Below are positions 7,320-27,482 of a stretch of 64,000 nucleotides of DNA, one piece after another. Source of the stretch: a virus; IMG/VR virus record IMGVR_UViG_3300012665_001507; one strand, 5' to 3'. The notes under the pieces are model-generated. The model made no database searches. It was not told where the DNA came from and was given only the letters and a program-made list of their open reading frames with translations. The translations under genes and the position numbers were made by a program. The first letter of the stretch is position 1. The number at the start of each line of letters is the position of its first letter.

Positions 7320-7338
7320 TTTGTTTTTGTTTTTAAAA

Positions 7339-8736: not shown

Positions 8737-8770
8737 ATGTTTTTCGTTTTGTTGATACAAAGGTAATAAA

Positions 8771-9280: not shown

Positions 9281-9281
9281 A

Positions 9282-9680: not shown

Positions 9681-9919
9681 CTAATTGTTAAATAACTACC
9701 TTCACGTTGGTCGTTAGATTGTTCAACCTTAAAACCTCTTTTATTTAAGTCTTTCACAACCAAAGCATCAGCATAGATACCAACACTACACGCCATTTGA
9801 TTTGCTTTTACAGCACGTTCAATTGCGTCTAAACAAGTTTTAATTTGGTTGTTAATTTTTTCACCTAAAACACTTTCAGCTGTTTTTCTAGCCCAGTCGG
9901 CAGTAATTTCTTCTTTCAT
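9674..9919 (-). CDS. Hypothetical protein
   Basis: Likely start MKEEIT at ATG 9919 after an A-rich leader. Confidence 0.55.
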   Translation of the reverse strand: MKEEITADWARKTAESVLGEKINNQIKTCLDAIERAVKANQMACSVGIYADALVVKDLNKRGFKVEQSNDQREGSYLTISW

Positions 9920-9956
9920 TTGTTTTGTTTTTAAAAGTAATCCTTTAACCTGTGGA

Positions 9957-11081: not shown

Positions 11082-11132
11082 AATTTTATTATTTTAAAGA
11101 CAAAGGTAATGATAAAAATTTGATTTACCAAA

Positions 11133-11477
11133 TTATTCTTCGTTTTCTTCGTCTTTTCTGTTGTCTTTTCTTAATTTTTTAAGTTTTTCGATTAAATCAT
11201 CGTAACTTTCTTCCTCGGCTTTACCTTTTATAATCTGAAAGGCTGGTGAATTGTGTTGTTCCATGTTATCTAACATCTTTTTAGCCGAAAACATACCTAC
11301 CAACTCACTAAATTTGAAGATGTCATCATCTTCCAGTACTATACCACCCAAAAAAATGAGGATAGTACCCATAAGTGCCACACCATTATCTTTTACTTCA
11401 TCACCCTCTTGCATCAACGCTTGACCCATTTGGACGAATTTAGCACTTAAATCTAATCTTTTATCTAAATTTTTCAT
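11133..11477 (-). CDS. Hypothetical protein
   Basis: ORF with its own TAnnTTTG promoter at 11491. Confidence 0.6.
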   Translation of the reverse strand: MKNLDKRLDLSAKFVQMGQALMQEGDEVKDNGVALMGTILIFLGGIVLEDDDIFKFSELVGMFSAKKMLDNMEQHNSPAFQIIKGKAEEESYDDLIEKLKKLRKDNRKDEENEE

Positions 11478-11605
11478 ATAGTATTTTTTACAAAGGTACT
11501 AATTTATTCGCTTATATGCAACATAAAACAATATTTTATTTTTTTTACTATAAAAAATAAATTTTAGTCTTTACTTTCATATTTATAGTTAAATGATTTA
11601 CTACT

Positions 11606-11854
11606 ATGTTCAGAAAAAAAATTTTAATTAGCCCGCAAGTTTACACTTATGAAACCGATAAGAGTGATAAACTAGCATTAATATCATCTGATAACCCATT
11701 CTTGGGTAGTGGTGGTGTAACGATTTCTGGTGGCGGTGGAAACACTGGCGGTGGAACTAACAATAATAACAATAACAATAACAACTTCAGTTACATCCTA
11801 TTGGAAAATGGTTTCTACCTTTTGCAAGAAGATGGTTCTAAAATCTACGTTTAA
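11606..11854 (+). CDS. Small virion-associated protein with Gly/Asn linker
   Basis: Poly-G/poly-N linker, C-terminal ILLENGFYLLQEDG motif, TATTTATA upstream, precedes the fibre gene. Confidence 0.55.
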   Translation: MFRKKILISPQVYTYETDKSDKLALISSDNPFLGSGGVTISGGGGNTGGGTNNNNNNNNNFSYILLENGFYLLQEDGSKIYV

Positions 11855-11855
11855 A

Positions 11856-14800: not shown

Positions 14801-16217
14801 TGAAGGTAGACAATCAATTGCATCTGGTTTAACATCACATGCTGAAGGTCACCAAACATCAGCCACAACGAGTTATACTCACTCTGAAGGATATAAAACA
14901 CTTGCATCTGGTATTGCATCACATGCTCAAGGTACTGGTACAACAGCTAGTGGTAATTATTCTCACGCTGAAGGTTTAAGTACGATAGCGTCTGGTGATA
15001 CGAGTCACGCAGAAGGTTCTGGTACTCAAGCTAATGGTATTATATCACATGCTGAAGGTGGTGGTACACGTGCTAATGGTGCTTATTCACATGCTGAAGG
15101 TTTCCAAACCATAGCGTCTGGAGTTCGCTCACATGCTGAAGGTAGTCAAACAACAGCTAGTGGTTCTGCTTCTCATACTGAAGGTGCTGGTACAGTAGCT
15201 AGTGGTGAAACCGCACATGCTGAAGGTAATTACACACAAGCTTTTGGCCAATATTCTCACGCTGAAGGTAATAATGCTAAAGCACATGCTGAATCATCTC
15301 ACGCTGAAGGTCATTACACGCTTGCTAGTAATTTTGCATCACACGCTGAAGGTTCTGGTACAATAGCTTCTGGTAATATTTCTCACGCTGAAGGTGAATA
15401 TACAAGAGCAACTGGTGGTTATTCACACGCTGAAGGTTGGACTACGTCTGCAACATCACAATATACTCACTCTGAGGGTTATGTAACTCTTGCTAGTGGA
15501 AATGCTTCACATGCTGAAGGGGTTGAAACAAGAGCTACTGGTGATGCTTCACATGCTGAAGGTGAGGCTTCAATAGCTTCTGGTATTAATTCTCATGCTG
15601 AAGGTAATGCTTCAACAGCTTCTGGTATTAATTCTCATGCTGAAGGTTGGTTGTCACAAGCTACTGGTTCAACATCACACGCTGAAGGTTACTCAACAAA
15701 AGCATATGGTCCTTATTCACATGCTGAAGGTTATATTACAGTTGCAACTGGACAAAATGCTCACGCTGAAGGTCAAGAAACATCAGCAACAACATATAAC
15801 ACTCACGCTGAAGGTATCGGGACACTTGCATCTGCTAATAGTGCTCACGCTGAAGGTAATGGAACAATTGCATCTGGTATTGATTCACACTCACAAAACA
15901 GATATACAACAGCATCTGGATTCTTTTCACACGCTGGTGGTTCTGCTTCAACAGCATCTGGTATTGCGTCATTCGTTCACTCTGTTGGTTCAACAGTAAG
16001 TGGTGATAGAAGTGCTGTGTTAGGTGGTTCTGGATTTACTGCAACTGCTGCTGACACGGTATACGTACCAAACTTAGTTATCAAGAAAGTATCTGCTGTA
16101 CCTACAAGTTCAGCTGACGCAATCGGTGAAGCTGGTTCTGTTACATGGGATGCTAACTACTTCTATTGGAGAACTCAATCTGATGGATGGTTAAGAGTAT
16201 CTGGTTCAACATTCTAA
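11856..16217 (+). CDS. Tail fibre/adhesin with TGGTY repeats and SHAEG (YadA-head-like) repeats
   Basis: Start MADKKISQLP at ATG 11856; tandem ~36-aa VTGGTYDN..GI.TFT repeats, then many 14-aa SHAEG repeats. Confidence 0.75.
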   Translation: MADKKISQLPSGQLLPQTIFPIVTNGTTSQTTYGGLLNTITSDLVVGAAFTGGTYDNNTGVITFNNLSGGTVGVSGFFTPADDITVTGGTYDNNTGITTFTDNMGHTFTVAGYYTGYTAPIDVFVTGGTYDNVTGITTFTNNTGGIFDVTGYFTAANDMTVTGGTYDNVTGIATFTDNMGNTFNVSGFFTPADDVTVTGGTYDNVTGITTFTDNMGNTFNVSGYFTQADDITVTGGTYSDVTGIATFTDNTDATFDVTGFFKTADDIFVSGMTFNQGNFDLTVERNDGTNFTESLAILATDMTVTGGTYDIVTGTATFTTNSGNTFDVTGFVSGYTDTSVSGGTYDSNTGIITFSDTTGGTFNVTGLFTPADDVFVTGGTYNNGVTTFRNNVGNTFTVSGFYTGATMTNGAVSASNSQPYPVLTYDINATLGTSGGNGRVRLPENAPIGKLVVIRNNMNVLTIEAFDGQPKISNYQSNGNTSAVGVIAYETKHFISLGGGYWYSVAVQGESTQFNGTPINVANQFLINETATNSTTTVLSTAQLNSTYPTLPVGFKLYCANIASGGRVYIKTTYNTWTSLPLVPTTYTGATSGLDTYVTGGTYNSGTATFTNNTGGTFNVTGFATGGGSGSDSYWVSGNTSTDLKRIGFGNIASGGYSASFGSSTEATGEMSAAFNYATKATGYAANAFGYATSAATNYAFSEGQYTVASGQSAHAEGQATRALGVYSHAEGYQTLSNGSASHAEGYVTSATTQGAHSEGTLTKATGLSSHAEGVSTKAVGAYSHAEGNTTTANGEAAHAEGKETIANGTYSHAEGYLTNAFQMYSHAEGVETQANGMGSHTEGYQTVTDGDYSHVEGIYSYAQGNYSHAEGTSTIAQGTNSHAEGNGAQALGVTSHAEGNQTTAEGMYSHAEGDQTLASGQTSHAEGMLTIAQGAYSHAEGYQSQAIGSTSHAEGNQTYANGQFSHAEGYNTTTWGQQSHAEGRQSIASGLTSHAEGHQTSATTSYTHSEGYKTLASGIASHAQGTGTTASGNYSHAEGLSTIASGDTSHAEGSGTQANGIISHAEGGGTRANGAYSHAEGFQTIASGVRSHAEGSQTTASGSASHTEGAGTVASGETAHAEGNYTQAFGQYSHAEGNNAKAHAESSHAEGHYTLASNFASHAEGSGTIASGNISHAEGEYTRATGGYSHAEGWTTSATSQYTHSEGYVTLASGNASHAEGVETRATGDASHAEGEASIASGINSHAEGNASTASGINSHAEGWLSQATGSTSHAEGYSTKAYGPYSHAEGYITVATGQNAHAEGQETSATTYNTHAEGIGTLASANSAHAEGNGTIASGIDSHSQNRYTTASGFFSHAGGSASTASGIASFVHSVGSTVSGDRSAVLGGSGFTATAADTVYVPNLVIKKVSAVPTSSADAIGEAGSVTWDANYFYWRTQSDGWLRVSGSTF
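13990..15860 (+). repeat. 42-bp-period coding repeat (CAYGCTGAAGGT = HAEG)
   Basis: Recurring tcacacgctgaaggt every 42 nt with variable intervening codons, all in frame. Confidence 0.85.
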
Positions 16218-16241
16218 TGAACTAAACACATATAAAATATT

Positions 16242-16266
16242 AAAGGGGTCTTATGACCCCTTTTTT
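16242..16266. terminator. Bidirectional intrinsic terminator
   Basis: AAGGGGTC-TTAT-GACCCCTT followed by a T-run, between convergent genes. Confidence 0.75.
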
Positions 16267-17192
16267 ATTTCTGTAACTTTTCCACTTATATTAAATGGTT
16301 TTACTTTTCTCCATTTGGTAATATCATTGCTCATCACAGCTTTACCACCATTTGGGTTAATCGCTATTGTGATATGTGGGATATCATTATTAGATGGATA
16401 CCCTTCAACTCTAACAGCCATGGCCATATCTGATAAACCTAATTCGGTAACAGTAAGCGTTACATCTTTACCCAAATCTTCTTGGTTTGGAACTGGTTTA
16501 CCAAATGCAATAGTCATGTGGTGTGCGATTACATCCCAACCTTGTGGAACTTCATCTTCTACTCTAGATAACAATGATGTTCTAGAACCACCATCCAATA
16601 CCACAGCAGAATATAAAACATCTGATGTATTGTACATATCTTTTGCTGCCATTACACTAGCAACCGTTAAAGGTCCTTGACCTGTGTGACTAGCTATCAT
16701 TGATTCGATTTTATCCAATGGAACACCGTGTGTGTTTCTTTTAGCTAATTCTTGTGCAGATAACCCACCAGTACCAATATCTTCAAAATTGATGTTCTTA
16801 TCGTCCAACCCCATTTCCAACGCAGCCTTAACAGCAGCTTTAGCTTCACTTTGTTTGATGTTCGTGTTATCTAGAATAACTGGAGACACACCAGACTTCA
16901 ATGAGTTGATAAGATTTTTAAGATTGGTTGAATGTGCTTTAGACAAAGGACTAAAGTCTTTAGATGCAATCATCTTTTCGAAGAATTCATTGTAATCACC
17001 TTGTGCTTCGATTACATCATCAGTTGAATGGATAACACCGTTGGTGCCAGCCAATTGTTTGGCTTTGGTAGACTTCCCCGAACCAGGAATTCCACGCATA
17101 ACTATAAGCACTTGGTTTGGTCTAGATATTGCGACCCCAAGTGAATTTTTCATTATACCTTCTCTAAGTATTTCTTTGATTGTTGTTTTCAT
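16251..17192 (-). CDS. Polynucleotide kinase (P-loop) fused to 2H cyclic phosphodiesterase; RNA end-healing enzyme
   Basis: GIPGSGKS Walker A, DNTN, RNTHGVP; C-terminal HMT and HIT 2H motifs. Confidence 0.8.
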   Translation of the reverse strand: MKTTIKEILREGIMKNSLGVAISRPNQVLIVMRGIPGSGKSTKAKQLAGTNGVIHSTDDVIEAQGDYNEFFEKMIASKDFSPLSKAHSTNLKNLINSLKSGVSPVILDNTNIKQSEAKAAVKAALEMGLDDKNINFEDIGTGGLSAQELAKRNTHGVPLDKIESMIASHTGQGPLTVASVMAAKDMYNTSDVLYSAVVLDGGSRTSLLSRVEDEVPQGWDVIAHHMTIAFGKPVPNQEDLGKDVTLTVTELGLSDMAMAVRVEGYPSNNDIPHITIAINPNGGKAVMSNDITKWRKVKPFNISGKVTEIKKGS

Positions 17193-17230
17193 ACAGCAAA
17201 GGTACGAAAACTTTTTTAATTATACAAATT

Positions 17231-17902
17231 TTATGAATAATATGTTTGGTAAACATCGTTGGTTAAACCGAAGTCAATTAGAACGATATCATCTTGACCA
17301 CCTCTTTGTACAATTCCGTAACTATTAAGTCTACCGAAGTCACCAGCGGGTGCGTCAATGTTTTGCATAAATTCAGCAATAGAACCAACAAACTCATTTT
17401 CATCAAGCCTAGCTTTTACTTCTGGGTCCATACTAAACATTGGTTTTTTACCACGGTTGACTTCGTTGAAGTTTCTTAAGTACATATTTAATTCTTCAAT
17501 AGTACAATCAGCAAGTCTTTGGAAGTCTTTCTTACTTACTTTTCTAGCCAATTCCATTTCAACCCATAAATCATCTGGATGATACATAAACGTATGTGCT
17601 AAGATTGAACCGAAATAAGAATCTTGACCCCATTGGATTTCAACTTCATTTTGTGCAAGTCCTTTTTGGTTCTTTGCCAATTTAAGTACTTTGGTGTCGT
17701 CTACCATATAAACAATACGTGCTGAACCAGAAGAAATTCTTTTAAGATGTTCTTCACAGTATCTAACTCTTTCAGCAAATTTCGTAAGTGTTTTAAAATG
17801 GTCCATATCAAATGTTGTAGGGTAATCCTCATCGACCATCATATTCTCTAGTAAATCAAAAGTCATTGTTTCAGATAACTTCTTTTTGATAAAATCTTTC
17901 AT
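17231..17902 (-). CDS. Protein-kinase-like fold protein
   Basis: SSGSARIVY glycine loop, VLKLA lysine, NEVE, D...N, LIDFG. Confidence 0.6.
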   Translation of the reverse strand: MKDFIKKKLSETMTFDLLENMMVDEDYPTTFDMDHFKTLTKFAERVRYCEEHLKRISSGSARIVYMVDDTKVLKLAKNQKGLAQNEVEIQWGQDSYFGSILAHTFMYHPDDLWVEMELARKVSKKDFQRLADCTIEELNMYLRNFNEVNRGKKPMFSMDPEVKARLDENEFVGSIAEFMQNIDAPAGDFGRLNSYGIVQRGGQDDIVLIDFGLTNDVYQTYYS

Positions 17903-17961
17903 TGTATTGTTTTATTATAAATATCCTTGATTTATTAAAAACACTTTGCTATATTTGTCCT

Positions 17962-18936
17962 ATGAACATACTAATTACTGGAGGAATGGGATTCATTGGT
18001 TCTCACCTCGTTAAACACATGGTTGAAAAATACCCTAACTATCGTATCATAAATTACGACAAACTAACATATGCTAGTAACCCTAGATTTTTGCGTTCAC
18101 TAGATGATTACCCAAACTACCATTTTGTTATGGGTGACATATGTAATAATTCACAATTGGAAGACACATTCGCAAAATATAAAATAACACACGTTATACA
18201 CTTGGCGGCTGAATCACATGTAGATAACTCTATCTTTGACCCTTCAGCTTTCATCCAAACAAACATTGTTGGAACAGCTAACCTATTAACTATGTGTAGA
18301 AACAGATGGAGAGGCGATAACCATAAATTTTACCACATTTCAACTGATGAGGTTTATGGTTCTTTAGGTAGTGAAGGTTACTTTACCGAAGATACACCTT
18401 ATGACCCTAGAAGTCCTTATTCAGCGTCAAAAGCTAGTTCTGACCACTTGGTTCGAGCATATTTCCACACATATGGTTTCCCAGCAGTTATTTCAAACTG
18501 TTCAAATAACTATGGACCAAACCAACATAACGAAAAATTAATTCCTTTGACTATTCAACGAATCAAAGACCAAAAAGAAATTCCTGTTTACGGTGATGGA
18601 TTAAATGTTAGAGATTGGTTATATGTTGAAGACCATGTGTCTGCAATCGATACAATCTTCCATACTGGAGTAAATGGTGAAACATATAACATTGGCGGCA
18701 ATAACGAATCCACCAACATCAATTTGGTTAATAAACTATGTGATTTGATGGATTCCAAACTGGGTCGTGAACAAGGAACGTCACGAGGTTTGATTAGTTA
18801 CGTTAAAGATAGGTTAGGTCATGATAGGAGATATGCGATTGATTCATCCAAGCTAACCCAAGAACTTGGATGGGAACCTAAAACCGAATTTGAATTAGGG
18901 TTATCCAATACGATTGATTGGTATCTTAACGTCTAG
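17962..18936 (+). CDS. rfbB: dTDP-glucose 4,6-dehydratase
   Basis: GGMGFIG, DKLTYA, HLAAESHVD, STDEVYG, YSASK, GHDRRY; start ATG 17962. Confidence 0.95.
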   Translation: MNILITGGMGFIGSHLVKHMVEKYPNYRIINYDKLTYASNPRFLRSLDDYPNYHFVMGDICNNSQLEDTFAKYKITHVIHLAAESHVDNSIFDPSAFIQTNIVGTANLLTMCRNRWRGDNHKFYHISTDEVYGSLGSEGYFTEDTPYDPRSPYSASKASSDHLVRAYFHTYGFPAVISNCSNNYGPNQHNEKLIPLTIQRIKDQKEIPVYGDGLNVRDWLYVEDHVSAIDTIFHTGVNGETYNIGGNNESTNINLVNKLCDLMDSKLGREQGTSRGLISYVKDRLGHDRRYAIDSSKLTQELGWEPKTEFELGLSNTIDWYLNV

Positions 18937-19021
18937 CGGAGAGTGTGGGATTCGAACCCACGGGCCCCTTTCGAGGCCACGGTTTAGCAAACCGCTCCAT
19001 TAACCACTCTGGCAACTCTCC
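18937..19021 (-). tRNA. tRNA-Ser(GCT)
   Basis: Cloverleaf with long variable arm, loop TT-GCT-AA, G73. Confidence 0.93.
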
Positions 19022-19026
19022 AATTG

Positions 19027-19099
19027 TACCCCTACAGGGATTCGAACCCCGATACTGGCCTTAGAAGGGCCATGTCCTATCCAGTTGAACGATAGAGGC
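19027..19099 (-). tRNA. tRNA-Arg(TCT)
   Basis: Cloverleaf, loop CT-TCT-AA. Confidence 0.93.
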
Positions 19100-19110
19100 A
19101 TATTATGTTG

Positions 19111-19183
19111 TGACCCTACAGGGATTCGAACCCCGATTCTAGCATTCGTAGTGCTAAGTCCTATCCAGTTGAACGATAGGGCC
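19111..19183 (-). tRNA. tRNA-Arg(ACG)
   Basis: Cloverleaf, loop CT-ACG-AA; D and T arms shared with the neighbouring Arg(TCT). Confidence 0.93.
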
Positions 19184-19275
19184 AAATTATTGCGACACTT
19201 TGTCGTGATAATTGTCGCAATTTTATCTTTTTTCTTCTTTCTCGCCATAATCACGACATTTTGGCGAGATTCGAG

Positions 19276-19349
19276 TAGCGATAACTGGACTCGAACCAGT
19301 GTCTCTGCCTTATGAGAGCAGCGTAAGAAACCAACTCTACCATATCGCC
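19276..19349 (-). tRNA. tRNA-Met(CAT), elongator type
   Basis: Cloverleaf, loop CT-CAT-AA, GGCG acceptor with paired 1:72. Confidence 0.85.
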
Positions 19350-19354
19350 ATTTC

Positions 19355-19507
19355 TTATCTTTTAAAAATAATTTTATTCCGTTCAATCGCTTTCTTAATC
19401 CTTTCAACCTCTTCTTTACTCGGATTGGTATTAACCGAATAAGTTATCCCCATTTTATCCATGTAATCATAAAGACGTTGCATGTCAGCTTCACTTGTCT
19501 TTTTCAT
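19355..19507 (-). CDS. Small ORF within the tRNA array (50 aa, MKKTSEADMQRLYDYMDKMG...)
   Basis: Fills the spacer between two tRNAs exactly; A-rich leader. Confidence 0.55.
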   Translation of the reverse strand: MKKTSEADMQRLYDYMDKMGITYSVNTNPSKEEVERIKKAIERNKIIFKR

Positions 19508-19521
19508 TTTATTTATTTTTG

Positions 19522-19595
19522 CGGGGCCGCTGGGATTCGAACCCAGGTAAATGGATTAACAGTCCACCGTATTAGACCGCTGCTACGACAGCCCC
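19522..19595 (-). tRNA. tRNA-Asn(GTT), divergent body
   Basis: Cloverleaf, loop CT-GTT-AA, G73, short variable loop. Confidence 0.85.
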
Positions 19596-19602
19596 TTGTT
19601 TG

Positions 19603-19674
19603 CTCTTCGGGGGAATTTCGAAATCCCGACCTAACGGTTAACAGCCGTTTGCTCTGCCTCTGAGCTACCGAAGA
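19603..19674 (-). tRNA. tRNA-Asn(GTT)
   Basis: Cloverleaf, loop CT-GTT-AA, G73. Confidence 0.9.
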
Positions 19675-19679
19675 ATATT

Positions 19680-19756
19680 TGGTGGTCCATCTAGGATTCG
19701 AACCTAGGACCTTCTCGTTATGAGCGAGCTGCTCTAACCAACTGAGCTAAAAGACC
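19680..19756 (-). tRNA. tRNA(CAT), probably Ile2 (lysidine type), encoded CCA
   Basis: Cloverleaf, loop CT-CAT-AA, Ile-like D arm TAGCTCAGTTGGTTAGAGC, ends ACCA. Confidence 0.8.
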
Positions 19757-19818
19757 AAATATCTGTTATACTTGGCCAAAACTCGTTAAAAAAGTGAGTT
19801 TTGGCCGCTTATAAATTG

Positions 19819-19892
19819 TAGGCAACACGAGAGTCGAACTCGTAACCTCTTCGGTATCAGCGAAGTGCTCTAACCAGTTGAGCTAGCTGCCT
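19819..19892 (-). tRNA. tRNA-Ile(GAT)
   Basis: Cloverleaf, loop CT-GAT-AC. Confidence 0.92.
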
Positions 19893-19904
19893 ATGTTGGA
19901 AACC

Positions 19905-20099
19905 CTAAGATTTCCATTGTGTTTTTCTGTTGTGTTTCCACGTTCTAAATTCTCTCCATTTATGGTTTTCAATGTTTCCATGATTCCATGTCCACCCTTC
20001 TTCATAATATGGTGGGTACAATTCCAATAAGAGAATTCGTCTGTAATCTTTTGAGCAAGTTGCTTTTTTAAATTTTGCTCTGCTTACGTTTACACTCAT
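19905..20099 (-). CDS. Small basic protein (..RTWKHNRKTQWK)
   Basis: ORF track; inside the tRNA array; preceded by a 9-codon uORF. Confidence 0.6.
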   Translation of the reverse strand: MSVNVSRAKFKKATCSKDYRRILLLELYPPYYEEGWTWNHGNIENHKWREFRTWKHNRKTQWKS

Positions 20100-20127
20100 A
20101 ACTTCGTAGTCTATTGTTTAGTAGACC

Positions 20128-20154
20128 TCAAAGCATATCAAATTCTTTTTTCAT
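20128..20154 (-). promoter_or_regulatory. uORF MKKEFDML ending CTT-TGA, followed by a hairpin
   Basis: ATG AAA AAA GAA TTT GAT ATG CTT TGA, then GGTCTA..TAGACT stem ending 8 nt before the next ATG. Confidence 0.45.
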
Positions 20155-20167
20155 AACACTAATTTTG

Positions 20168-20238
20168 CACACCCACTAGGATTCGAACCTAGAACAACGG
20201 TTTTGGAGACCGTGATGATACCATTTCACCATGGATGT
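20168..20238 (-). tRNA. tRNA-Trp(CCA)
   Basis: Cloverleaf, loop CT-CCA-AA, G73. Confidence 0.92.
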
Positions 20239-20244
20239 ATTTTG

Positions 20245-20316
20245 GGTGTTAGGACGGTACCGAGCCGTCTTCTTTGGCTTCACAAACCAACACTTCACCT
20301 TAAAGCTTCAAACACC
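20245..20316 (-). tRNA. tRNA-His(GTG), divergent
   Basis: G-1:C73, loop TT-GTG-AA, atypical T loop CTCGGTA. Confidence 0.8.
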
Positions 20317-20325
20317 ATATACTAG

Positions 20326-20400
20326 GGTGGAAGATGGGTCTCGAACCCACGACCTTCTGAACCACAATCAGACGCTCTAACCAACTGAGCTACAACCACC
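20326..20400 (-). tRNA. tRNA-His(GTG)
   Basis: G-1:C73, loop TT-GTG-GT, canonical arms. Confidence 0.92.
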
Positions 20401-20409
20401 ATTTATTTG

Positions 20410-20499
20410 CGGAGAGAGTGGGACTCGAACCCACACATCCTTTTACAAACCCTCGGTTTTCAAGACCGCTGCCGCTAGGCCAACTCGGCTTACCTCTCC
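20410..20499 (-). tRNA. tRNA-Ser(TGA)
   Basis: Long variable arm, loop CT-TGA-AA, G73. Confidence 0.9.
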
Positions 20500-20675
20500 G
20501 TATTATTTTTAATCTGTACAAAAACGACAGTGAAACCACCCTCTTTTTGAAATTTCAATTCACCTTGATACCCGCTGGCATCTGCAATCTTTCTGTACTT
20601 GTCGACAATCAAGTCGAAATTCTTTGCTAGGTCTAAGTTTTTTTCTTGCCCTAACTTTCTTACCAATTCTCCCAT
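20490..20675 (-). CDS. Hypothetical protein, first gene after the attenuator
   Basis: 61-aa ORF whose stop overlaps the 5' end of tRNA-Ser(TGA). Confidence 0.5.
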   Translation of the reverse strand: MGELVRKLGQEKNLDLAKNFDLIVDKYRKIADASGYQGELKFQKEGGFTVVFVQIKNNTER

Positions 20676-20681
20676 AGTCGT

Positions 20682-20719
20682 AAAATAAAAAACCCGACTA
20701 AGTTTTCACTTGTCGGGTT
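20682..20719 (-). terminator. Attenuator terminator upstream of the tRNA array
   Basis: AACCCGAC-AAGTGAAAACTTA-GTCGGGTT followed by TTTTATTTT; its 5' arm is also complementary to TGTCGGGT in the leader ORF. Confidence 0.85.
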
Positions 20720-20749
20720 AATGTTATTTGTTGTTATCTTTTGAGTTGT

Positions 20750-20848
20750 TTAGAACTCAGTGATATCACAATTAGACATACCCGACACATGGTGACTATT
20801 GCGTCTCCAATTCGAAATCGAAATCATATGTATGTTAATTGTTCTCAT
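20750..20848 (-). CDS. Leader (attenuator) peptide MRTINIHMISISNWRRNSHHVSGMSNCDITEF
   Basis: 32-codon ORF between the promoter (20916-20923) and the terminator; codons match the downstream tRNA set. Confidence 0.8.
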   Translation of the reverse strand: MRTINIHMISISNWRRNSHHVSGMSNCDITEF

Positions 20849-20991
20849 TTTGTTTTTCTTTGTTTGAGCATTGTGCTCGTTGTTAATAAATATACTCCTA
20901 TTTCTAAAAGTTATACAAAGGTACTATCTTTTTTAATAAAAAGCAAGCTTTTTTGTAAATATTTTTATTTTATTTTATAAATGTTTGATTA

Positions 20992-21444
20992 TCAGACAAA
21001 TTTTTCAGCCGTAACATAGACATATTCTGTCTCACCAACCAACTCTCTACGTTTTAACCAATCTTTTAGATTACCCAAAGCTCTAAATTGTTGACCCCAG
21101 ATATAATCATAACCTAGTGTTCTAGGGTAATCTTTCATTTGGTTTCCGTATCCTTGTCCTCTTAATGATTTATCGACACATAGTAAAATACCTTCAACAC
21201 CTTTTAAGTTTTTGTAATCTTTAGCGGAAACCATGTAATTTATTTGGTTACCGCCAAATATGTAAGCACCCATGATATTGTTTTCTTCATCAACCAATAG
21301 TATTGATTCATCCCAATTAACATTTGCCAAATATCTCATGTATTGGTAAAAATTGGTTACATCCATTACGTGCTCAAAGAATTGATGAGTGTAATCTAAA
21401 ACTTCAGTTACTTTATTCTGCGGTATCCCTTGTATAATCTTCAT
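20992..21444 (-). CDS. GNAT-family acetyltransferase
   Basis: VDKSLRGQGYG acetyl-CoA binding motif. Confidence 0.7.
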   Translation of the reverse strand: MKIIQGIPQNKVTEVLDYTHQFFEHVMDVTNFYQYMRYLANVNWDESILLVDEENNIMGAYIFGGNQINYMVSAKDYKNLKGVEGILLCVDKSLRGQGYGNQMKDYPRTLGYDYIWGQQFRALGNLKDWLKRRELVGETEYVYVTAEKFV

Positions 21445-21907
21445 TTACTAATATTTCAAAAAATTGATAATCTCTCGGCATCCAAATATGGTTAAGTTGT
21501 TGAATGTCATATTTAATAACACCTAACCATGGGTCAAGTATATCAAAAACATCACCAACATATCCGTTGGCTATAATCCAGTGAGGTACACCTTGCGTGA
21601 TTGTTCTAATGATTGGAATGTTACCAGCATCGATAACTTGTTTTAACAAATCAAACGGTCTTTTTTGGTGAATGTACTCGATGTATTTCATCTTAACAGC
21701 ATCCATACCCTTTTGCATCCTGTCTGGTGGTGTTCCGACAATCCAATCGGTACCACAAGCTTCAGCAATAGTTTCAACGGTATCAGCTATATCAATATCA
21801 AACGGTAAATCGTTTGGGTGATTCAAGATATATCTTAAGGCCATGTAGATACATGTTGGCCCACATGTGTTACCTGTTGGTTGCTGTTCGTAATTAATAG
21901 TTATCAT
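21413..21907 (-). CDS. Peptidase C39-like cysteine protease
   Basis: QQ...TCGPTC, PHWI, ILDPW; start MITINYEQ at 21907. Confidence 0.75.
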   Translation of the reverse strand: MITINYEQQPTGNTCGPTCIYMALRYILNHPNDLPFDIDIADTVETIAEACGTDWIVGTPPDRMQKGMDAVKMKYIEYIHQKRPFDLLKQVIDAGNIPIIRTITQGVPHWIIANGYVGDVFDILDPWLGVIKYDIQQLNHIWMPRDYQFFEILVNEDYTRDTAE

Positions 21908-22268
21908 CTGATTCCTCATCATCAAACTCGTCATCGTAGTCATCTTCAAACTCGTCATCATAATCATCTTCTTCACCGATTACTTCTGCTAAGAAACCTT
22001 CGCTAACAAAAACACCAAATTCATTGTTGAATATGCGTTTAATCATTTTAGTTTCTTCTGTTGAGATTTCCTTGAATTCGATTCTGTTTAATAAATCTTC
22101 TCCACTGGTGTATTCTAATTCGTCTTCACCTACATTGTAGACAAACGGCCAATTAATGCTACTAGCCATTTCTTCATAGGTTTCAACATCTTTGTCTGTC
22201 ATAACAACAAACCCATTGATTTCGATTTCATCAATCGTATCACTAAAGATTGCCAAATATTTTGCCAT
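21894..22268 (-). CDS. Acidic hypothetical protein
   Basis: ORF with D/E-rich C-terminus. Confidence 0.65.
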   Translation of the reverse strand: MAKYLAIFSDTIDEIEINGFVVMTDKDVETYEEMASSINWPFVYNVGEDELEYTSGEDLLNRIEFKEISTEETKMIKRIFNNEFGVFVSEGFLAEVIGEEDDYDDEFEDDYDDEFDDEESDDNY

Positions 22269-22319
22269 AATATAATTTTATAAGAATAAATATAATACAA
22301 TCACAATTGTAAATCAAGT

Positions 22320-23477
22320 TTATCCTAATAATTTTTTAAAATTATCAGTTTCAACCTTTTGAATTGCTTGACCTAGTTCTGGTCCTGGTTTTAGATTCAT
22401 CTTATCCATTAACTCTGGCCCAGAAACACTCAATTGGAATTGAATGAACGCATCTAACAATTTAGAATCTAACCCAACAATCTTACCGAATGTTTTCATC
22501 TGTTCTGGTGTAACACCAGCATTCTTTTGTGCTCTTTTAAGCAAGACAGCAGTTTCTGGTGATAATTTAATTAAACCAATCAAAAAACTAATTGCTTTAA
22601 CCTCATCCGCTGAGTATTTCAAGTTATTCAATTCTTTTCTCAAAGATTCAATGTTGTTTCTTTTCAATATGTTTGCAATAACAATGATTGGGTCGTTATT
22701 TTCAACAAAGTCTTTATCAACAGCTAAACCATTGAACACCCAGTCAAACAATCCGTAACCATCAATCATCTGTAAGAAATTCTTAACCGACTTAGCAGAA
22801 GCAATACCTTTCAAAAACTCATCTCTAATACGTTCACCAGAAATACCTTTAAGGCTAGCATCCTTCTTCAACGCAGCATCGGTTGCTGGGTCTAATTGAC
22901 TACCAAACCTACCAGCAAAACGAATCGCTCTAAGGATACGAAGTCTATCTTCACCAAACCTATCTTCTGGAGAACCAACTGTTTTAACAACCCCATTTTT
23001 AAGGTCATTAACACCGCCAACAAGGTCAACAATTTCTTTTGTGTCAATATCGTAGAACAAAGCATTGATGGTTAAGTCACGTCTTTTAACGTCACCTTCA
23101 ATGTTTGTAAATGATACAGCATCTGGTCTTCTACCACCAGATAAGTCTTCACGAAACGTTGCAATCTCGTATTCGCCTTGGTCGGTGAATACATTGATTA
23201 CACCAAATGCTTTACCAGTAGGAAGAGTTCTTAGATTAGCTTTGGCCATCATTTCTTCTACCTTGTCTGGAACAGCGTCAGTAGCTAAGTCGTAGTCTTT
23301 TGGGTTTTTACCCAATAAAGCATCACGAACAGCACCACCAACAACATACAACTTGTATCCGTTTTTCTTGAACACTTGTTGGATTTGTTGAATGTCGCTA
23401 GGAATAGGGATATCCATACGGATTCTTTCTTCCATCATTAGTCCTTCTCTTAGTATTTGTTTAATTTCGTTTTTCAT
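22320..23477 (-). CDS. cca: CCA-adding enzyme / tRNA nucleotidyltransferase (class II)
   Basis: VGGAVRD, DYD, RRDLTINA, EDRLRILRAIRF, ERIRDE motifs. Confidence 0.9.
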   Translation of the reverse strand: MKNEIKQILREGLMMEERIRMDIPIPSDIQQIQQVFKKNGYKLYVVGGAVRDALLGKNPKDYDLATDAVPDKVEEMMAKANLRTLPTGKAFGVINVFTDQGEYEIATFREDLSGGRRPDAVSFTNIEGDVKRRDLTINALFYDIDTKEIVDLVGGVNDLKNGVVKTVGSPEDRFGEDRLRILRAIRFAGRFGSQLDPATDAALKKDASLKGISGERIRDEFLKGIASAKSVKNFLQMIDGYGLFDWVFNGLAVDKDFVENNDPIIVIANILKRNNIESLRKELNNLKYSADEVKAISFLIGLIKLSPETAVLLKRAQKNAGVTPEQMKTFGKIVGLDSKLLDAFIQFQLSVSGPELMDKMNLKPGPELGQAIQKVETDNFKKLLG

Positions 23478-23550
23478 AGTACAAAGGTATTAAAAATATT
23501 TGACATATCCAAATATAATAATAAATACTTTATTAAATAAAAAAGGGGTA

Positions 23551-23973
23551 TTAAACCCCTTCTTTACTTAACTTCAATCTATTGATTAAAGTTTCATTAT
23601 AATCTCTAATTTCTTTCCAACCCATTGGTGGTTTTGGTAATTGACTCACCGCTTCTACCAAAACATCAGCCATCCATTGAGTTTTCTTTTTAAGTTTTAC
23701 AGATTTCATTTCTCTATTCAAGAATAAAGAGTGTTTTATCCAACACTTAGCGTTAGGGTCATCGTAACGACCAATTTCCACGTTTCTATCAATAGCTTTA
23801 GGTTCTAAATTTTCATCTAACCAGATTGAGAACCAAATTTTCTCACCATCCATTGTCGTAGTTTCAACTACTCTTAAAAATTTATCATTTTTTTCACCAG
23901 AAACGAATACGTGTTGTGATGTTTTTGTTAAATATGTGTTCAATTCTTGTTGAACTTGTTCTTTTGTTTTCAT
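23551..23973 (-). CDS. Hypothetical protein downstream of the RAPP mini-ORF
   Basis: ORF track. Confidence 0.65.
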   Translation of the reverse strand: MKTKEQVQQELNTYLTKTSQHVFVSGEKNDKFLRVVETTTMDGEKIWFSIWLDENLEPKAIDRNVEIGRYDDPNAKCWIKHSLFLNREMKSVKLKKKTQWMADVLVEAVSQLPKPPMGWKEIRDYNETLINRLKLSKEGV

Positions 23974-24057: not shown

Positions 24058-24087
24058 TTAAGGCGGTGCTCTGAGAATCTACATCAT
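24058..24087 (-). promoter_or_regulatory. Mini-ORF M-M-amber-I-L-R-A-P-P-stop
   Basis: ATG ATG TAG ATT CTC AGA GCA CCG CCT TAA. Confidence 0.6.
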
Positions 24088-24116
24088 GATTTCTTTGTTT
24101 TAGTTATTGTTATTAG

Positions 24117-24186
24117 AGGTGGGGGAAGGATTCGAACCTACATACCCATTCTTGCGGAATGGTACCTACCATTTGGTTACCCCACC
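24117..24186 (-). tRNA. Atypical tRNA-Cys(GCA)-like
   Basis: GGTGGGG/CCCCACC acceptor, U73, loop CC-GCA-AG (C33 instead of U33), T-stem mismatch. Confidence 0.65.
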
Positions 24187-24191
24187 TTGTA

Positions 24192-24437
24192 TCAAGGATA
24201 AATCCTTGCTATGTTATTTATGATTTCTAATTTGGCCTTGAATTTAATCGAACCCTTGGTGCTTGGATTGTCTGGTGTTTCTTTGGTTGAAAAGCCAATA
24301 CCAGAATCCATATCTACATGGTCAACATAGTATGTTTCACCCTTGACTTTGATTACCCACATTGGAATGTTGGTATCTTGCAAGTGCATCTTGTTGAAAT
24401 GGAAAATAATCTCGGTTCTTTTATCGATTTTAAGCAT
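24192..24437 (-). CDS. Hypothetical protein
   Basis: Overlaps the Pth2 stop (translational coupling). Confidence 0.65.
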   Translation of the reverse strand: MLKIDKRTEIIFHFNKMHLQDTNIPMWVIKVKGETYYVDHVDMDSGIGFSTKETPDNPSTKGSIKFKAKLEIINNIARIYP

Positions 24438-24780
24438 GACATACCTCCTTTCCTAGTAACGGACAAGAACTTGTCAACTTTCTAGCTCTATCGCTAGGTT
24501 CAAATGCTACTGCTGTGATTTCGTTGTTCAAGTCTGGTTCACGAAATAACGTGTACTTGATACCAGACACAAGAGCTTTGCTAATCAATTTGATTAACGC
24601 TTCTTCGTCAGCGACAGTCAGTAATGCTAAATAGTTTGAATTTTTTTGCCATTGTGTAGCTTCCTGTGGATGCTCATGTTGAAAATCAATGGCTGCGTGT
24701 GCAGATTGCACCGCTTGTGTAGAAATTTGTAGGTCACGTCTTGTGACAACTCTTAATTTTTGATTGTTAATCTATTTCAT
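24430..24780 (-). CDS. Peptidyl-tRNA hydrolase type 2 with in-frame TAG at codon 3
   Basis: ATG AAA TAG ATT... continues in frame to KLRVVTRRDL...AVQSAHAA (the Pth2 N-terminal signature) and FREPDL...TAVA. Confidence 0.75.
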
Positions 24781-24835
24781 CGTTTTTGTTTTTATATAAA
24801 TATATTACTTTAATTTAAAAAGTCAAATCTTTTTG

Positions 24836-24907
24836 TGATTCTAATGGGATTCGAACCCATGCCTAATGGTTTTAGAGGCCATCGTACTGCCGTTATACTA
24901 TAGAACC
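24836..24907 (-). tRNA. Amber suppressor tRNA (anticodon CTA)
   Basis: GGTTCTA/TAGAATC acceptor, GTAT/GTAC D stem, ATGGC-CTCTAAA-ACCAT anticodon arm, ATGGG-TTCGAAT-CCCAT T arm; own promoter at 24919. Confidence 0.88.
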
Positions 24908-24957
24908 TTATTATGATACAAAGGTACCACAACTTTTTTTAAAAAGCAAGTTTTTTT

Positions 24958-25476
24958 CTAATTTTTTTTCAAAAATTTTCCTAACCTCACCACTTTTTCT
25001 TTAAATTCCTCAAATGTACCATTGTTTTCAATAATAATATCAGCACATGTTTTATCAATATTGAATGAAGAAGCATCTTCCAACGGTAACCTACCAGAAC
25101 CATCCACCCAAATGATTATATCAAACAACCCTTGGTTGATACACTCTAATATCTCACCTCTATCACGCATCCCAACATAACAATCAGCCATCTCAAGGAT
25201 TCCTTTTGCTAATCTAGCTCTATCTTCCTTGTTGTAGTCGCAAATAGCTTCATACCATTCTTGTCTGTGATTAACTCGGTCTTCAAAGCACTCAACTGAG
25301 TTTTGATACCCGTACTTATCTTTCAATAAATCATAAAGAAAAATATCAGCCGCAGCTTGTGATGAGGAAACAAACGTTAACCCAAATTCTTCATTCATGA
25401 TTTCAGCTAATGAATCCTTACCATGTCTCGCATGACCGATAATTAGCATTTTCTTAAAATTGCTTTCTAATCCCAT
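24958..25476 (-). CDS. Deoxynucleoside monophosphate kinase-like P-loop protein
   Basis: GHARHGKD Walker A; DIIIENNG C-terminal motif. Confidence 0.65.
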   Translation of the reverse strand: MGLESNFKKMLIIGHARHGKDSLAEIMNEEFGLTFVSSSQAAADIFLYDLLKDKYGYQNSVECFEDRVNHRQEWYEAICDYNKEDRARLAKGILEMADCYVGMRDRGEILECINQGLFDIIIWVDGSGRLPLEDASSFNIDKTCADIIIENNGTFEEFKEKVVRLGKFLKKN

Positions 25477-25724
25477 TCTTCTAATGTTTTATCTCTGTTT
25501 TCAATTACACATCTTAATGCTAGTTCAATATCACAATGATAATTTAAGATTTGACCTTCTATTATCATGCATGTATTAACACCCAATGCTGTGTAAAACT
25601 TTTCTTTGTCAATATCAAACTTCTCCAAAATGTCATTGGTTTCGCTACCCAAAAACCCATGTTTGTGTTTTGTTGGGTACGTGTCGATAAATTCAGTTAA
25701 ATTCTCTGATGTTAACTTATCCAT
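25467..25724 (-). CDS. Hypothetical protein
   Basis: ORF track, coupled to neighbours. Confidence 0.6.
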   Translation of the reverse strand: MDKLTSENLTEFIDTYPTKHKHGFLGSETNDILEKFDIDKEKFYTALGVNTCMIIEGQILNYHCDIELALRCVIENRDKTLEEWD

Positions 25725-26036: not shown

Positions 26037-26714
26037 TTATGCAAGTAATTCTAATTTTCCTCGTAAGATATCTTTCAAACTGGCTGTTTTATTGGTAAGG
26101 TGGTCAACAACAACACCATCTTTTACTCGATATGTTCTACGTTTGTCACTTCTATCACCCTTACCAATTTGTTCACGTCTTTCTTCAACCTCTTCAGAAG
26201 TATGACCTGTACGATAAAATTCATTTACACGTCTTTTAAGCTCTTTTAAAGCATCTTCTTTGTTCTTGTGTTGATTCCTTCCATCTCGAACTACTTTGAG
26301 CCCTGTAGCCACGTGTGTAACCACCACACAAGAATCTGTGGTGTTCTTATGTTGACCACCATTCCCAGTTCCTCTGGTTGTTTCCAAACGATATTCACTA
26401 GGATGTAATTCTACTTCCTTGTACTCGTTTTCCTCTAAAATTGCTACAGTAATTGAACTGGTATGAACTCTACCCTTTCTTTCGGTTGGTGGGACTCTTT
26501 GCCACCTGTGGTTTCCCACTTCGTTGCTAAAGACTTCTTTTACATTCTTGCCTGTTAGTCAGATACTAACAAACCCTAACCTATCTTCGGTTATCAGTCA
26601 GTCGATGTTATTGTTTTTCGCTGTTTTGATGTAAATGTCTCGCATTTCACAAACCAACAGCTTCGCATCGGTTCCACCCTCTGCATCACGGATTTCTAAT
26701 AAGATTTTTCCCAT
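26037..26714 (-). CDS. Class I release factor, RF1-like, lacking domain 1, with two in-frame TGA
   Basis: MGKILLEIRDAEGG...; TGA at codons 39 and 52; GNHRWQRVPPTE..GRVHTS (PxT), GGQ, RNQHKNK, RTY. Confidence 0.85.
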
Positions 26715-27379: not shown

Positions 27380-27482
27380 CTAGATAATGTTTTTTTTTTA
27401 ATAAAATTAAGAACGTTTTAAAATAAATATACACAAAGGTACGAATTTTTTATGTCCGTGTCAAGTTTTTTTGCAATTATTT

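What the first reader, a model, noticed from the sequence alone, without database searches (positions are those of the whole stretch)
24430..24926. Amber suppressor tRNA immediately upstream of a Pth2 gene that begins ATG-AAA-TAG
Seen: a tRNA with anticodon CTA (24836-24907, own promoter), and 55 nt downstream a Pth2 gene whose conserved N-terminus (KLRVVTRRDL..AVQSAHAA) is reachable from ATG 24780 only by reading through TAG at codon 3 (24772-24774). TAG is a normal stop for other genes here (e.g. 18936, 24958, 25467, 32309). Established: two-codon minigenes such as lambda bar cause peptidyl-tRNA drop-off, which Pth recycles. Inference: without suppression the locus is an fMet-Lys minigene; with suppressor or low RF1 it makes the hydrolase, so Pth output reports amber-termination status. 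The phage RF1-like factor would oppose this, forming a cross-wired UGA/UAG circuit in a standard-code phage.
Basis: partly seen in the sequence, partly recalled or inferred. Interest (0 to 1): 0.87.

Follow-up and report, generated by a model that had tools for sequence, protein, structure and literature searches.

The report
Amber-gated phage Pth2 gene with suppressor tRNA
A large freshwater phage that uses the normal genetic code carries its own UAG-reading tRNA 55 bases upstream of a small tRNA-hydrolase-like gene whose third codon is UAG; nearly all related phages keep this pairing, so the enzyme is probably made only when that tRNA overrides the stop.

Summary
A well-formed tRNA(CUA) lies at 24836-24907 (-). 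It is followed 55 nt later by ATG-AAA-TAG-ATT, which opens a Pth2-fold gene (24430-24780).

The phage uses the standard code. The window and two complete relatives of 368 and 362 kb are about 90% coding under table 11. TAG ends 8-10% of their genes. No other gene in the window needs TAG read-through.

In 77 of 78 related phage loci (47-96% identity), TAG is the first in-frame stop, 0-8 codons before the conserved core. In 76 of these an ATG lies 1-4 codons upstream of it. The base after TAG is always a purine. A same-strand tRNA(CUA) lies within 3 kb in most loci. Cultured phages share the design: Tenacibaculum pT24, Mycobacterium cluster C, and Agrobacterium Atu_ph07, which has TGA and a reported UCA suppressor.

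A second amber-gated mini-ORF, MM-TAG-ILRAPP-stop (24058-24087), belongs to the same module.

Best reading: the tRNA gates synthesis of the hydrolase by suppressing the stop. Why it does so is inferred. The lambda-bar minigene idea and the RF cross-wiring idea are not supported by anything tested here.

This scan has reported the same design before on other DNA (56 notes, at least 50 genomes). I found no paper describing it.

The parts
24919..24926 (-). TACCTTTG, a -7-type promoter box 12 nt upstream of the tRNA(CUA) 5' end
   Evidence: The octamer occurs 20 times in the window against 3.45 expected; 0 of 100 shuffles reach 20. Sixteen copies are on the coding (-) strand. It fits the Bacteroidota TAnnTTTG promoter consensus (my own knowledge).
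24836..24907 (-). tRNA with anticodon CUA (amber suppressor candidate, elongator type, CCA not encoded)
   Evidence: ARAGORN. Rfam RF00005 63.4 bits. Across 17 homologues, 19 of 21 cloverleaf pairs show compensatory changes and the anticodon loop CUCUAAA is constant in 16 of them.
24799..24826 (-). Promoter-like element between the tRNA and the gene: TTGACT, 16 nt, TATATT, containing TATATTTAT
   Evidence: Consensus scan. The ATATTTAT motif recurs upstream of the ATG in most relatives. TATATTTAT occurs 4 times in the window, all on the - strand, which is not enriched overall.
24772..24780 (-). ATG-AAA-TAG: start codon, one sense codon and the in-frame amber codon that gates the gene
   Evidence: Sequence. 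In 77 of 78 relatives TAG is the first in-frame stop, 0-8 codons before the core; 76 have an ATG 1-4 codons upstream of it. The A-rich leader without a Shine-Dalgarno motif is the norm in this phage: 0 of 50 genes have such a motif.
24430..24780 (-). Pth2-like gene, 116 codons including the TAG, with stop TAA at 24430-24432
   Evidence: Pfam PF01981 34.6 bits. AlphaFold2 model pLDDT 94.9. Top Foldseek matches are archaeal Pth2 and human Bit1, TM 0.71-0.78.
24192..24437 (-). orf81, a highly conserved 81-aa protein of unknown fold whose ATG overlaps the Pth2-like stop by 8 nt
   Evidence: ORF list. Found directly behind the Pth2-like gene in 32 related loci. Mean column identity 69% with 24 invariant residues. 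No family or fold match.
24117..24186 (-). tRNA-Cys(GCA), a conserved neighbour of the module
   Evidence: ARAGORN. Rfam 47.9 bits. Present at the same place in most close relatives.
24058..24087 (-). Second amber-gated mini-ORF: ATG ATG TAG ATT CTC AGA GCA CCG CCT TAA (MM-amber-ILRAPP-stop)
   Evidence: Sequence. This is the only match in the 64 kb. The pattern M-x(0-4)-TAG-x(0-12)-PP-stop occurs in 34 of 82 related loci, always on the module's strand. Controls gave 1 match with TAA and 0 with TGA.
23551..23973 (-). orf140, the gene downstream of the PP-stop leader, possibly regulated by it
   Evidence: ORF list. It has homologues in 8 loci. The 141-nt leader region folds better than shuffles (z -2.3), and the 5' arm of the stem starts at the mini-ORF stop codon.

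Best explanation
This is a dedicated suppressor-and-target pair in a standard-code phage.

The phage tRNA(CUA) is transcribed from a common phage promoter box. It must then be matured and charged; CCA is not encoded, and a phage CCA-adding enzyme lies 1.4 kb away. The tRNA then decodes the UAG at codon 3 of the Pth2-like mRNA. Without it, the ribosome ends after fMet-Lys and no hydrolase is made. The overlapping orf81 may also fail to be translated.

The UAG sits in a disordered, length-variable N-terminal tail, so it acts as a gate and does not place a special residue. Its position 2-5 codons after the start and the purine that follows it are features expected to favour suppression over release-factor action.

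Shown here: the anatomy, the conservation, the standard code, the Pth2 fold and the soundness of the tRNA.

Inferred: that read-through happens; which amino acid is inserted; and the purpose. My preferred purpose is that hydrolase supply, and the output of a second amber-gated PP-stop leader, are tied to the level of active suppressor tRNA in the infected cell. This would be part of a phage translation-maintenance island that also holds tRNA genes, RNA ligases, a CCA-adding enzyme and an RF-like gene.
For: 1. TAG specificity. In 77 of 78 related loci (47-96% identity) TAG is the first in-frame stop, 0-8 codons before the core, although TAA makes up about 75-85% of stops in these genomes. 76 have an in-frame ATG 1-4 codons upstream of it. 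The number and identity of the flanking codons vary. When the loci are clustered at 60% identity, 16 of 17 clusters keep TAG.

2. Linkage. A same-strand tRNA(CUA) lies within 3 kb in most loci, and typically 50-200 nt upstream in the closest ones.

3. Distant cultured phages repeat the design. Tenacibaculum pT24 has ATG AAA TAG ATA plus a tRNA(CUA) 2.6 kb upstream. Mycobacterium phages Alice and ScoobyDoobyDoo have ATG/GTG-TAG-GTG with an annotated tRNA(cta) about 200-250 nt downstream. Agrobacterium phage Atu_ph07 has ATG, 5 codons, TGA, then a Pth2 core with no start codon in the 19 codons between. Its paper reports a UCA suppressor tRNA.

4. No alternative start. 75 of 77 loci have no ATG, GTG or TTG between the TAG and the core. 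In 20 of 77 the codon after TAG cannot initiate. GTG 24711 would remove strand beta-1 (residues 9-14) and the invariant R14 and D16.

5. Not genome-wide recoding. Coding density is 90% under table 11, TAG ends 8-10% of ORFs, and genes are not split at TAG.

6. Context. The base after the gating TAG is a purine in 77 of 77 loci. It is a purine after 48% of terminal TAGs, and at the first position of 70% of early codons.

7. The tRNA is under selection: 19 of 21 pairs show compensatory changes and it scores 63.4 bits.

8. A second conserved UAG target lies in the same module.
Against: - There is no direct evidence of read-through, of charging of the tRNA, or of the protein's N-terminus.
- In this window the codon after TAG is ATT, a rare but real bacterial start codon. 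In the mycobacteriophages it is GTG. In those particular phages a start after the TAG cannot be excluded.
- About 16 of 78 loci show no tRNA(CUA) within 3 kb. It may lie elsewhere or be missed.
- The relatives are related by descent, so the counts are not independent events.
- Ordinary genes ending in TAG show no extra back-up stops. If the suppressor is efficient, that cost is unexplained.
- The hydrolase activity is not shown. The canonical Gly-Lys loop of Pth2 is deleted in this family.
Confidence: 0.72

Rival explanations
1. Leader minigene with re-initiation. ATG-(1-4 codons)-TAG is a tiny upstream ORF. Ribosomes terminate at the TAG and restart on the adjacent codon (ATT here, GTG in mycobacteriophages), so the hydrolase is made without the suppressor. 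The tRNA next door serves other targets.
For: ATT follows the TAG in about two thirds of loci and GTG follows it in mycobacteriophages. Both can initiate. The leader is short and unstructured.
Against: Re-initiation would not require TAG, yet 77 of 78 loci have TAG in genomes where TAA is the usual stop. In 20 of 77 loci the next codon cannot initiate (GTA, GTT, ACG, ACT, AGC, AAC, GCT). The same TAG design recurs in a second mini-ORF of the module. In Atu_ph07 the stop changes to TGA together with a reported UCA suppressor.
Confidence: 0.1
2. The unsuppressed state is itself functional: the fMet-Lys minigene provokes peptidyl-tRNA drop-off as lambda bar does, and hydrolase output reports the balance between RF1 and suppressor, opposed by the phage RF-like factor.
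For: In form the leader is a two-codon minigene here. The gene product is Pth2-like. An RF1-type gene with in-frame TGAs lies 1.3 kb upstream.
Against: Leader length (2-5 sense codons) and the last sense codon are not conserved, so no specific peptidyl-tRNA is selected. No test of drop-off or of RF action was possible. The idea adds assumptions beyond simple gating.
Confidence: 0.1
3. Ordinary stop-codon recoding (code 15). The phage reads TAG as sense in a whole class of genes, and the Pth2-like gene is just one recoded gene.
For: Public gene callers translated many relatives with TAG as Q, giving N-termini of the form M-x-Q-I-N-N-Q. A phage tRNA(CUA) is present.
Against: The window and two complete relatives are about 90% coding under table 11. 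TAG ends 48-65 ORFs per genome. Same-frame neighbours split by TAG number 0-2, against 26-43 for TAA in the two complete genomes and 3 in the window. A code-15 tblastn test gave 20 TAG positions against 13 for the TGA control, which is noise. Only one further credible in-frame TAG was seen, in one relative.
Confidence: 0.03
4. Broken or shortened gene. The TAG is a nonsense mutation, and either a 93-aa product from GTG 24711 is made or nothing is made.
For: Some public gene calls are 93 aa from that GTG.
Against: The region between the TAG and the GTG is conserved and contains invariant R14 and D16 and strand beta-1. The TAG is retained down to 47% identity in the related loci and in phages whose Pth2-like proteins are 36-41% identical.
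Confidence: 0.02

Closest known systems
Stop-codon-recoded phages with their own suppressor tRNAs (TAG read as Gln, 'code 15'; crAss-like, Lak, Agate and others; bioRxiv 10.1101/2021.08.26.457843; PMC9523058)
   Same: A phage-encoded tRNA(CUA) overrides UAG in a standard-code host. In-frame stops are proposed to delay expression until the suppressor is present.
   Different: In those phages dozens of genes, mainly structural and lysis genes, carry in-frame TAGs and TAG is given up as a terminator. Here the genome is standard-code and TAG still ends 8-10% of genes. The conserved targets are one small hydrolase-like gene and one mini-ORF beside the tRNA, each with the stop at codon 3-6.
Orphan suppressor tRNAs of standard-code jumbo phages (Xanthomonas phage XacN1, PMC5852040; Agrobacterium phage Atu_ph07, PMC6102473)
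   Same: These are large phages with many tRNAs, a suppressor tRNA and a peptidyl-tRNA hydrolase gene.
   Different: The XacN1 authors read through stops at gene ends and state that they could not identify target genes. The Atu_ph07 authors point only to the many UGA stop codons as potential targets. Here the target is an in-frame stop at the start of the hydrolase-like gene. In Atu_ph07 I found the matching TGA design.
prfB (RF2) autoregulation through an early in-frame UGA
   Same: An in-frame stop early in a gene of the termination and rescue machinery makes output depend on how well that stop is read.
   Different: prfB needs a +1 frameshift and senses its own product. Here the frame is unchanged, the stop is UAG, a dedicated tRNA is supplied, and the product is not a release factor.
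Lambda bar minigenes and Pth
   Same: A two-codon ORF next to a topic involving peptidyl-tRNA hydrolase.
   Different: bar toxicity depends on particular codons and on a Pth-limited host. Here the leader's length and codons vary, and the conserved features are the TAG and the tRNA.
RAPP-like arrest-peptide leaders (PMC10987492)
   Same: The second mini-ORF ends in R-A-P-P followed by a stop, upstream of a gene and a foldable leader.
   Different: It is only 9 codons long, an amber codon at position 3 gates access to the motif, and stalling has not been tested.

Membership tests
tRNA (Rfam RF00005), elongator amber suppressor | Cloverleaf scored by the covariance model and supported by compensatory changes | tested here: met
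   63.4 bits against a gathering score of 29. 19 of 21 pairs show double changes across 17 homologues.
tRNA (Rfam RF00005), elongator amber suppressor | Anticodon CUA in a 7-nt loop with U33 and A37 | tested here: met
   The loop is CUCUAAA in the window and in 16 of the 17 aligned homologues.
tRNA (Rfam RF00005), elongator amber suppressor | Elongator and not initiator: position 1:72 paired, and no run of three G-C pairs at the base of the anticodon stem | tested here: met
   G1-C72 is paired. The anticodon stem is AUGGC/ACCAU with a C-A mismatch at its base. The criteria come from my own knowledge.
tRNA (Rfam RF00005), elongator amber suppressor | Is aminoacylated and suppresses UAG in vivo | not testable with these tools
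   Comparison with the phages' other tRNAs gave no clear parent isoacceptor. The inserted amino acid is unknown.
Pth2 peptidyl-tRNA hydrolase (Pfam PF01981) | Profile match above the curated cut-off | tested here: met
   34.6 bits against a cut-off of 23, E 2.5e-8. A family profile against PDB gave E 1.3e-10 to MJ0051.
Pth2 peptidyl-tRNA hydrolase (Pfam PF01981) | Pth2/Bit1 alpha-beta fold | tested here: met
   Model pLDDT 94.9. Foldseek TM 0.71-0.78 to 2zv3, 3erj, 1q7s and 1xty.
Pth2 peptidyl-tRNA hydrolase (Pfam PF01981) | Active-site Lys in the Gly-Lys loop and Asp of the D-A-G motif (residues recalled from work on archaeal Pth2) | tested here: inconclusive
   The acidic position is kept as invariant E81, and Q25 and H28 align with the canonical Q and H. 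The Gly-Lys loop is deleted in the whole phage family.
Pth2 peptidyl-tRNA hydrolase (Pfam PF01981) | Hydrolyses peptidyl-tRNA | not testable with these tools
   No assay was possible.
Code-15 (TAG-recoded) phages | Many genes with conserved in-frame TAG | tested here: not met
   One gene in the window, and at most one more in a relative.
Code-15 (TAG-recoded) phages | TAG abandoned as a terminator | tested here: not met
   TAG ends 12 of 89, 65 of 610 and 48 of 492 ORFs.
Lambda bar-type minigene | Conserved two-codon ORF with a particular last sense codon | tested here: not met
   The leader has 2-5 sense codons and the last codon varies.
Lambda bar-type minigene | Toxic through peptidyl-tRNA drop-off when Pth is limiting | not testable with these tools
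   No assay was possible.
RAPP-like arrest-peptide leader (for the mini-ORF 24058-24087) | C-terminal R-A-P-P-like motif | tested here: met
   ILRAPP-stop here. PP-stop follows an amber codon in 34 of 82 loci.
RAPP-like arrest-peptide leader (for the mini-ORF 24058-24087) | Stalls the ribosome and thereby controls the downstream gene | not testable with these tools
   The only evidence is a predicted leader fold with z -2.3.

The most novel reading that the evidence does not exclude
Suppressor tRNAs of standard-code large phages exist mainly to operate a small, self-contained translational switch. The switch consists of a suppressor tRNA, a Pth2-like gene and a Pro-Pro-stop leader, each target carrying the matching stop at codon 2-7. 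It measures how well the infected cell decodes that stop (suppressor against release factor) and sets the supply of a tRNA hydrolase and partner proteins accordingly. The switch is ancient and portable. It occurs in phages of Bacteroidota, Actinobacteria and Proteobacteria, and the stop codon and the anticodon change together (UAG with CUA, UGA with UCA).
Probability: 0.45. Interest if true: 0.85.

Novelty: new variant of a known kind. Interest (0 to 1): 0.78.

Why it matters
Suppressor tRNAs in standard-code jumbo phages have had no known target. The XacN1 paper says so explicitly (PMC5852040).

A conserved in-frame stop at the start of a neighbouring hydrolase-like gene gives these tRNAs a concrete job that can be tested. 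It would be a natural example of suppressor-gated gene expression, a design otherwise known from synthetic biology.

It also corrects annotation. Hundreds of database entries are truncated, or were translated under code 15 only because of this one codon.

Cultured phages that carry the design make the test practical: Tenacibaculum pT24, Mycobacterium smegmatis cluster C phages and Agrobacterium Atu_ph07.

Tried and rejected
- DNA search of the phage collection with 24100-25500 found nothing.
- No whole genome is held for the window, so two complete relatives were fetched in its place.
- A first test for recoding using six-frame segments was swamped by conservation in non-coding frames. It was replaced by the tests.
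- The search for related loci failed with the 33-sequence alignment. Single distant queries gave 0-3 loci. A 10-sequence alignment worked.
- tRNA identity: comparison with all tRNAs of the window and of two complete genomes showed no clear parent.
- No read-through-promoting RNA structure was found around the TAG (z -0.74).
- Back-up stops after terminal TAGs are no closer than after TAA.
- orf81 has no Pfam, PHROG, Atlas, Foldseek or VIA-align relative; the best Z was 3.9.
It was not pursued.
- RNA-library contigs from three studies cover the gene, and one bridges the tRNA and the gene with the TAG intact. Contigs cannot prove transcription, so this is not used as evidence.
- Locus LR745208 has a tRNA(UUA) beside a Pth2-like gene, but no start codon lies before its upstream TAA, so it was not counted.

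Full report
**What is there.** On the minus strand the window carries, in order:
- a TACCTTTG promoter box (24919-24926);
- a tRNA with anticodon CUA (24836-24907);
- a second promoter-like element (24799-24826);
- ATG AAA TAG ATT (24780-24769), opening a frame that runs to TAA at 24430-24432.

Rfam scores the tRNA at 63.4 bits against a gathering score of 29. With the TAG read as a residue, the 116-aa product matches Pfam PTH2 above the cut-off, from residue 8 onward. An AlphaFold2 model built on 33 relatives has pLDDT 94.9. Its best structural matches are archaeal Pth2 and human Bit1, with TM 0.71-0.78. Strand beta-1 is residues 9-14, and two of the eight family-invariant residues (R14, D16) lie before GTG 24711. 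The 93-aa ORF listed under table 11 therefore cannot be the functional product.

**The phage uses the standard code.** A greedy table-11 ORF map covers 90% of the window. TAA ends 70 ORFs, TAG 12 and TGA 7. The TAG-terminated genes include ones whose family matches run to the end of the profile, namely a GDP-mannose-dehydratase-like gene and an SbcC-like gene.

No whole genome is held for the window, so I fetched two complete relatives of 368,549 and 362,018 bp. Both are about 90% coding under table 11, and TAG ends 65 of 610 and 48 of 492 ORFs. Same-frame neighbours separated by a single TAG number 1 and 2, against 43 and 26 for TAA. A tblastn test under code 15 found 20 TAG positions inside alignments, against 13 for a TGA control under code 4. 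That is noise. No other gene in the window needs TAG read-through. This is not a code-15 phage.

**Conservation.** 24 close loci, and then 80 loci in all from IMG/VR, were examined. Of the 78 with a usable anchor:
- In 77, TAG is the first in-frame stop, 0-8 codons before the conserved K-L-x-V-V-x-R-x-D core.
- In 76, an in-frame ATG lies 1-4 codons upstream of the TAG.
- In 75 of the 77, no ATG, GTG or TTG lies between the TAG and the core.
- The sense codons before the TAG vary in number and identity.
- The codon after the TAG is ATT in about two thirds. In 20 loci it is a codon that cannot initiate: GTA, GTT, ACG, ACT, AGC, AAC or GCT.
- The base after the TAG is a purine in all 77. It is a purine after 48% of ordinary terminal TAGs, and at the first position of 70% of early codons.

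Clustering at 60% identity leaves 17 clusters, of which 16 have TAG. These counts share ancestry and are not independent events. Even so, retention of this one codon while its neighbours drift is hard to explain unless TAG itself is required. The one locus without a TAG (L115) has no suppressor tRNA nearby. About 100 of 120 public protein records for relatives start M-x(1-3)-Q-[IV], meaning they were called with TAG read as Q. The rest are truncated calls.

**Linkage to the tRNA.** A same-strand tRNA(CUA) lies within 3 kb in most loci, and 50-200 nt upstream in the closest ones. Across 17 homologues, 19 of 21 cloverleaf pairs show compensatory changes, and 16 of them keep the loop CUCUAAA unchanged. 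Position 1:72 is paired and the anticodon stem lacks the initiator's G-C run, so this is an elongator tRNA. CCA is not encoded. A CCA-adding enzyme gene lies at 22320-23477. The inserted amino acid could not be inferred.

**Distant and cultured carriers.**
- Tenacibaculum phage pT24 has ATG AAA TAG ATA before its Pth2-like domain, and a tRNA(CUA) 2.6 kb upstream.
- Mycobacterium cluster C phages have ATG TAG GTG (Alice) or GTG TAG GTG (ScoobyDoobyDoo). An annotated tRNA(cta) lies about 200-250 nt downstream of the gene annotated as peptidyl tRNA hydrolase. In these phages a start at the GTG cannot be excluded.
- In Agrobacterium phage Atu_ph07 a Pth2 homologue is preceded by ATG, five codons, TGA, and then 19 codons without a start. 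The deposited CDS is cut short. The phage's paper reports a single suppressor tRNA with anticodon UCA (PMC6102473). So the stop and the anticodon appear to change together.
- The XacN1 paper states that no target of its CUA suppressors could be found (PMC5852040).
- Four full-text searches found no description of this pairing.

**A second target.** A search for M-x(0-4)-TAG-x(0-12)-Pro-Pro-stop finds this one site in the 64 kb. It also finds 34 of 82 related loci, always on the module's strand. The controls gave 1 match with TAA and 0 with TGA. R-A-P-P-like endings are known ribosome-arrest motifs (PMC10987492). The leader downstream of the mini-ORF folds better than shuffles (z -2.3), and the 5' arm of the stem starts at the mini-ORF stop codon. 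A stalled ribosome could therefore open the A-rich region ahead of orf140. This step is inference.

**Other parts of the module.**
- orf81 (24192-24437) overlaps the Pth2-like stop by 8 nt. It follows the gene in 32 loci and is more conserved than the hydrolase itself. Its function and fold remain unknown.
- Genes in this phage lack Shine-Dalgarno motifs (0 of 50) and have A-rich leaders. The SD-less leader before ATG 24780 is therefore normal.
- TACCTTTG occurs 20 times against 3.45 expected. Together with the SD-less leaders, this points to a Bacteroidota host, which is inference.

**How it most likely works.** The tRNA must be made, matured and charged before the ribosome can pass codon 3. 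Until then each initiation yields a dipeptide. Once the suppressor is active, the Pth2-like protein is made, and probably the overlapping orf81 as well. The early position of the stop and the purine after it are the features that classical work on amber suppression associates with efficient read-through (my own knowledge).

The purpose is open. My preferred reading is that hydrolase supply is tied to suppressor activity. Suppression at the 8-10% of genes that end in TAG should create read-through and stalled ribosomes, and so more peptidyl-tRNA. A feedback loop in which the hydrolase acts on the suppressor itself is equally allowed by the data.

**Standing.** This scan has noted the same design on other DNA many times: 56 notes in at least 50 genomes, with follow-ups reaching the same reading. 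I reached my reading before seeing those notes. I re-tested their main claims here: conservation, cultured carriers, the Pro-Pro-stop leader, and one case of stop and anticodon changing together.

Noticed in passing
window 26037-26714 (-): An RF1-like gene without domain 1. It starts at ATG 26714 and carries two in-frame TGAs (26598-26600 and 26559-26561). Read with TGA as W, it matches Pfam PCRF (C-terminal half) and RF-1, with a PPT tripeptide where RF1 has P-x-T, and GGQ. The orthologue in one complete relative keeps one TGA. In the other relative the two halves are in different frames. ARAGORN finds no tRNA(UCA).
   Followed up: partly
window 3182-3904 (-): A second, 240-aa protein with a Pth2-like domain and an ordinary ATG start. 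It is conserved in both complete relatives (profile E 1.2e-8; PHROG 3668 'hydrolase'). The amber-gated copy is thus one of two paralogues.
   Followed up: partly
L039 (complete relative G1, genome position 239226): The orthologue of window gene 17231-17902 has an in-frame TAG at codon 6, reading MEEFK-TAG-LNSF where the window has MDHFK-T-LTKF. The alignment runs across it. It may be a further suppressor target or a nonsense mutation. The following base is T.
   Followed up: partly
window 5800-23500 and 33759-35210: A translation and tRNA-maintenance island surrounds the module: 12 tRNAs at 18936-20499, a CCA-adding enzyme, Rnl1-like and Rnl2-like RNA ligases, a kinase/CPD-like protein, DnaJ, and a 483-aa 'RNA-binding protein' (PHROG 850).
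   Followed up: partly
window, 20 sites (for example 20916-20923, 24919-24926, 27434-27441): The octamer TACCTTTG is about six-fold over-represented, mostly on the coding strand in intergenic DNA. It is probably the main promoter -7 box. Genes lack Shine-Dalgarno motifs. Both observations suggest a Bacteroidota host.
   Followed up: partly
L132 and L072 (LR745208): In two distant loci the suppressor tRNA beside the Pth2-like gene has anticodon UUA (ochre). L132 still has TAG in the gene. LR745208 has TAA upstream, but no start codon precedes it.
   Followed up: no
L068 402-481 and 769-848 (Tenacibaculum phage pT24): Two nearly identical 80-nt tRNA-like genes, annotated 'tRNA-Undet'. ARAGORN reads their anticodon as UAU.
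   Followed up: no
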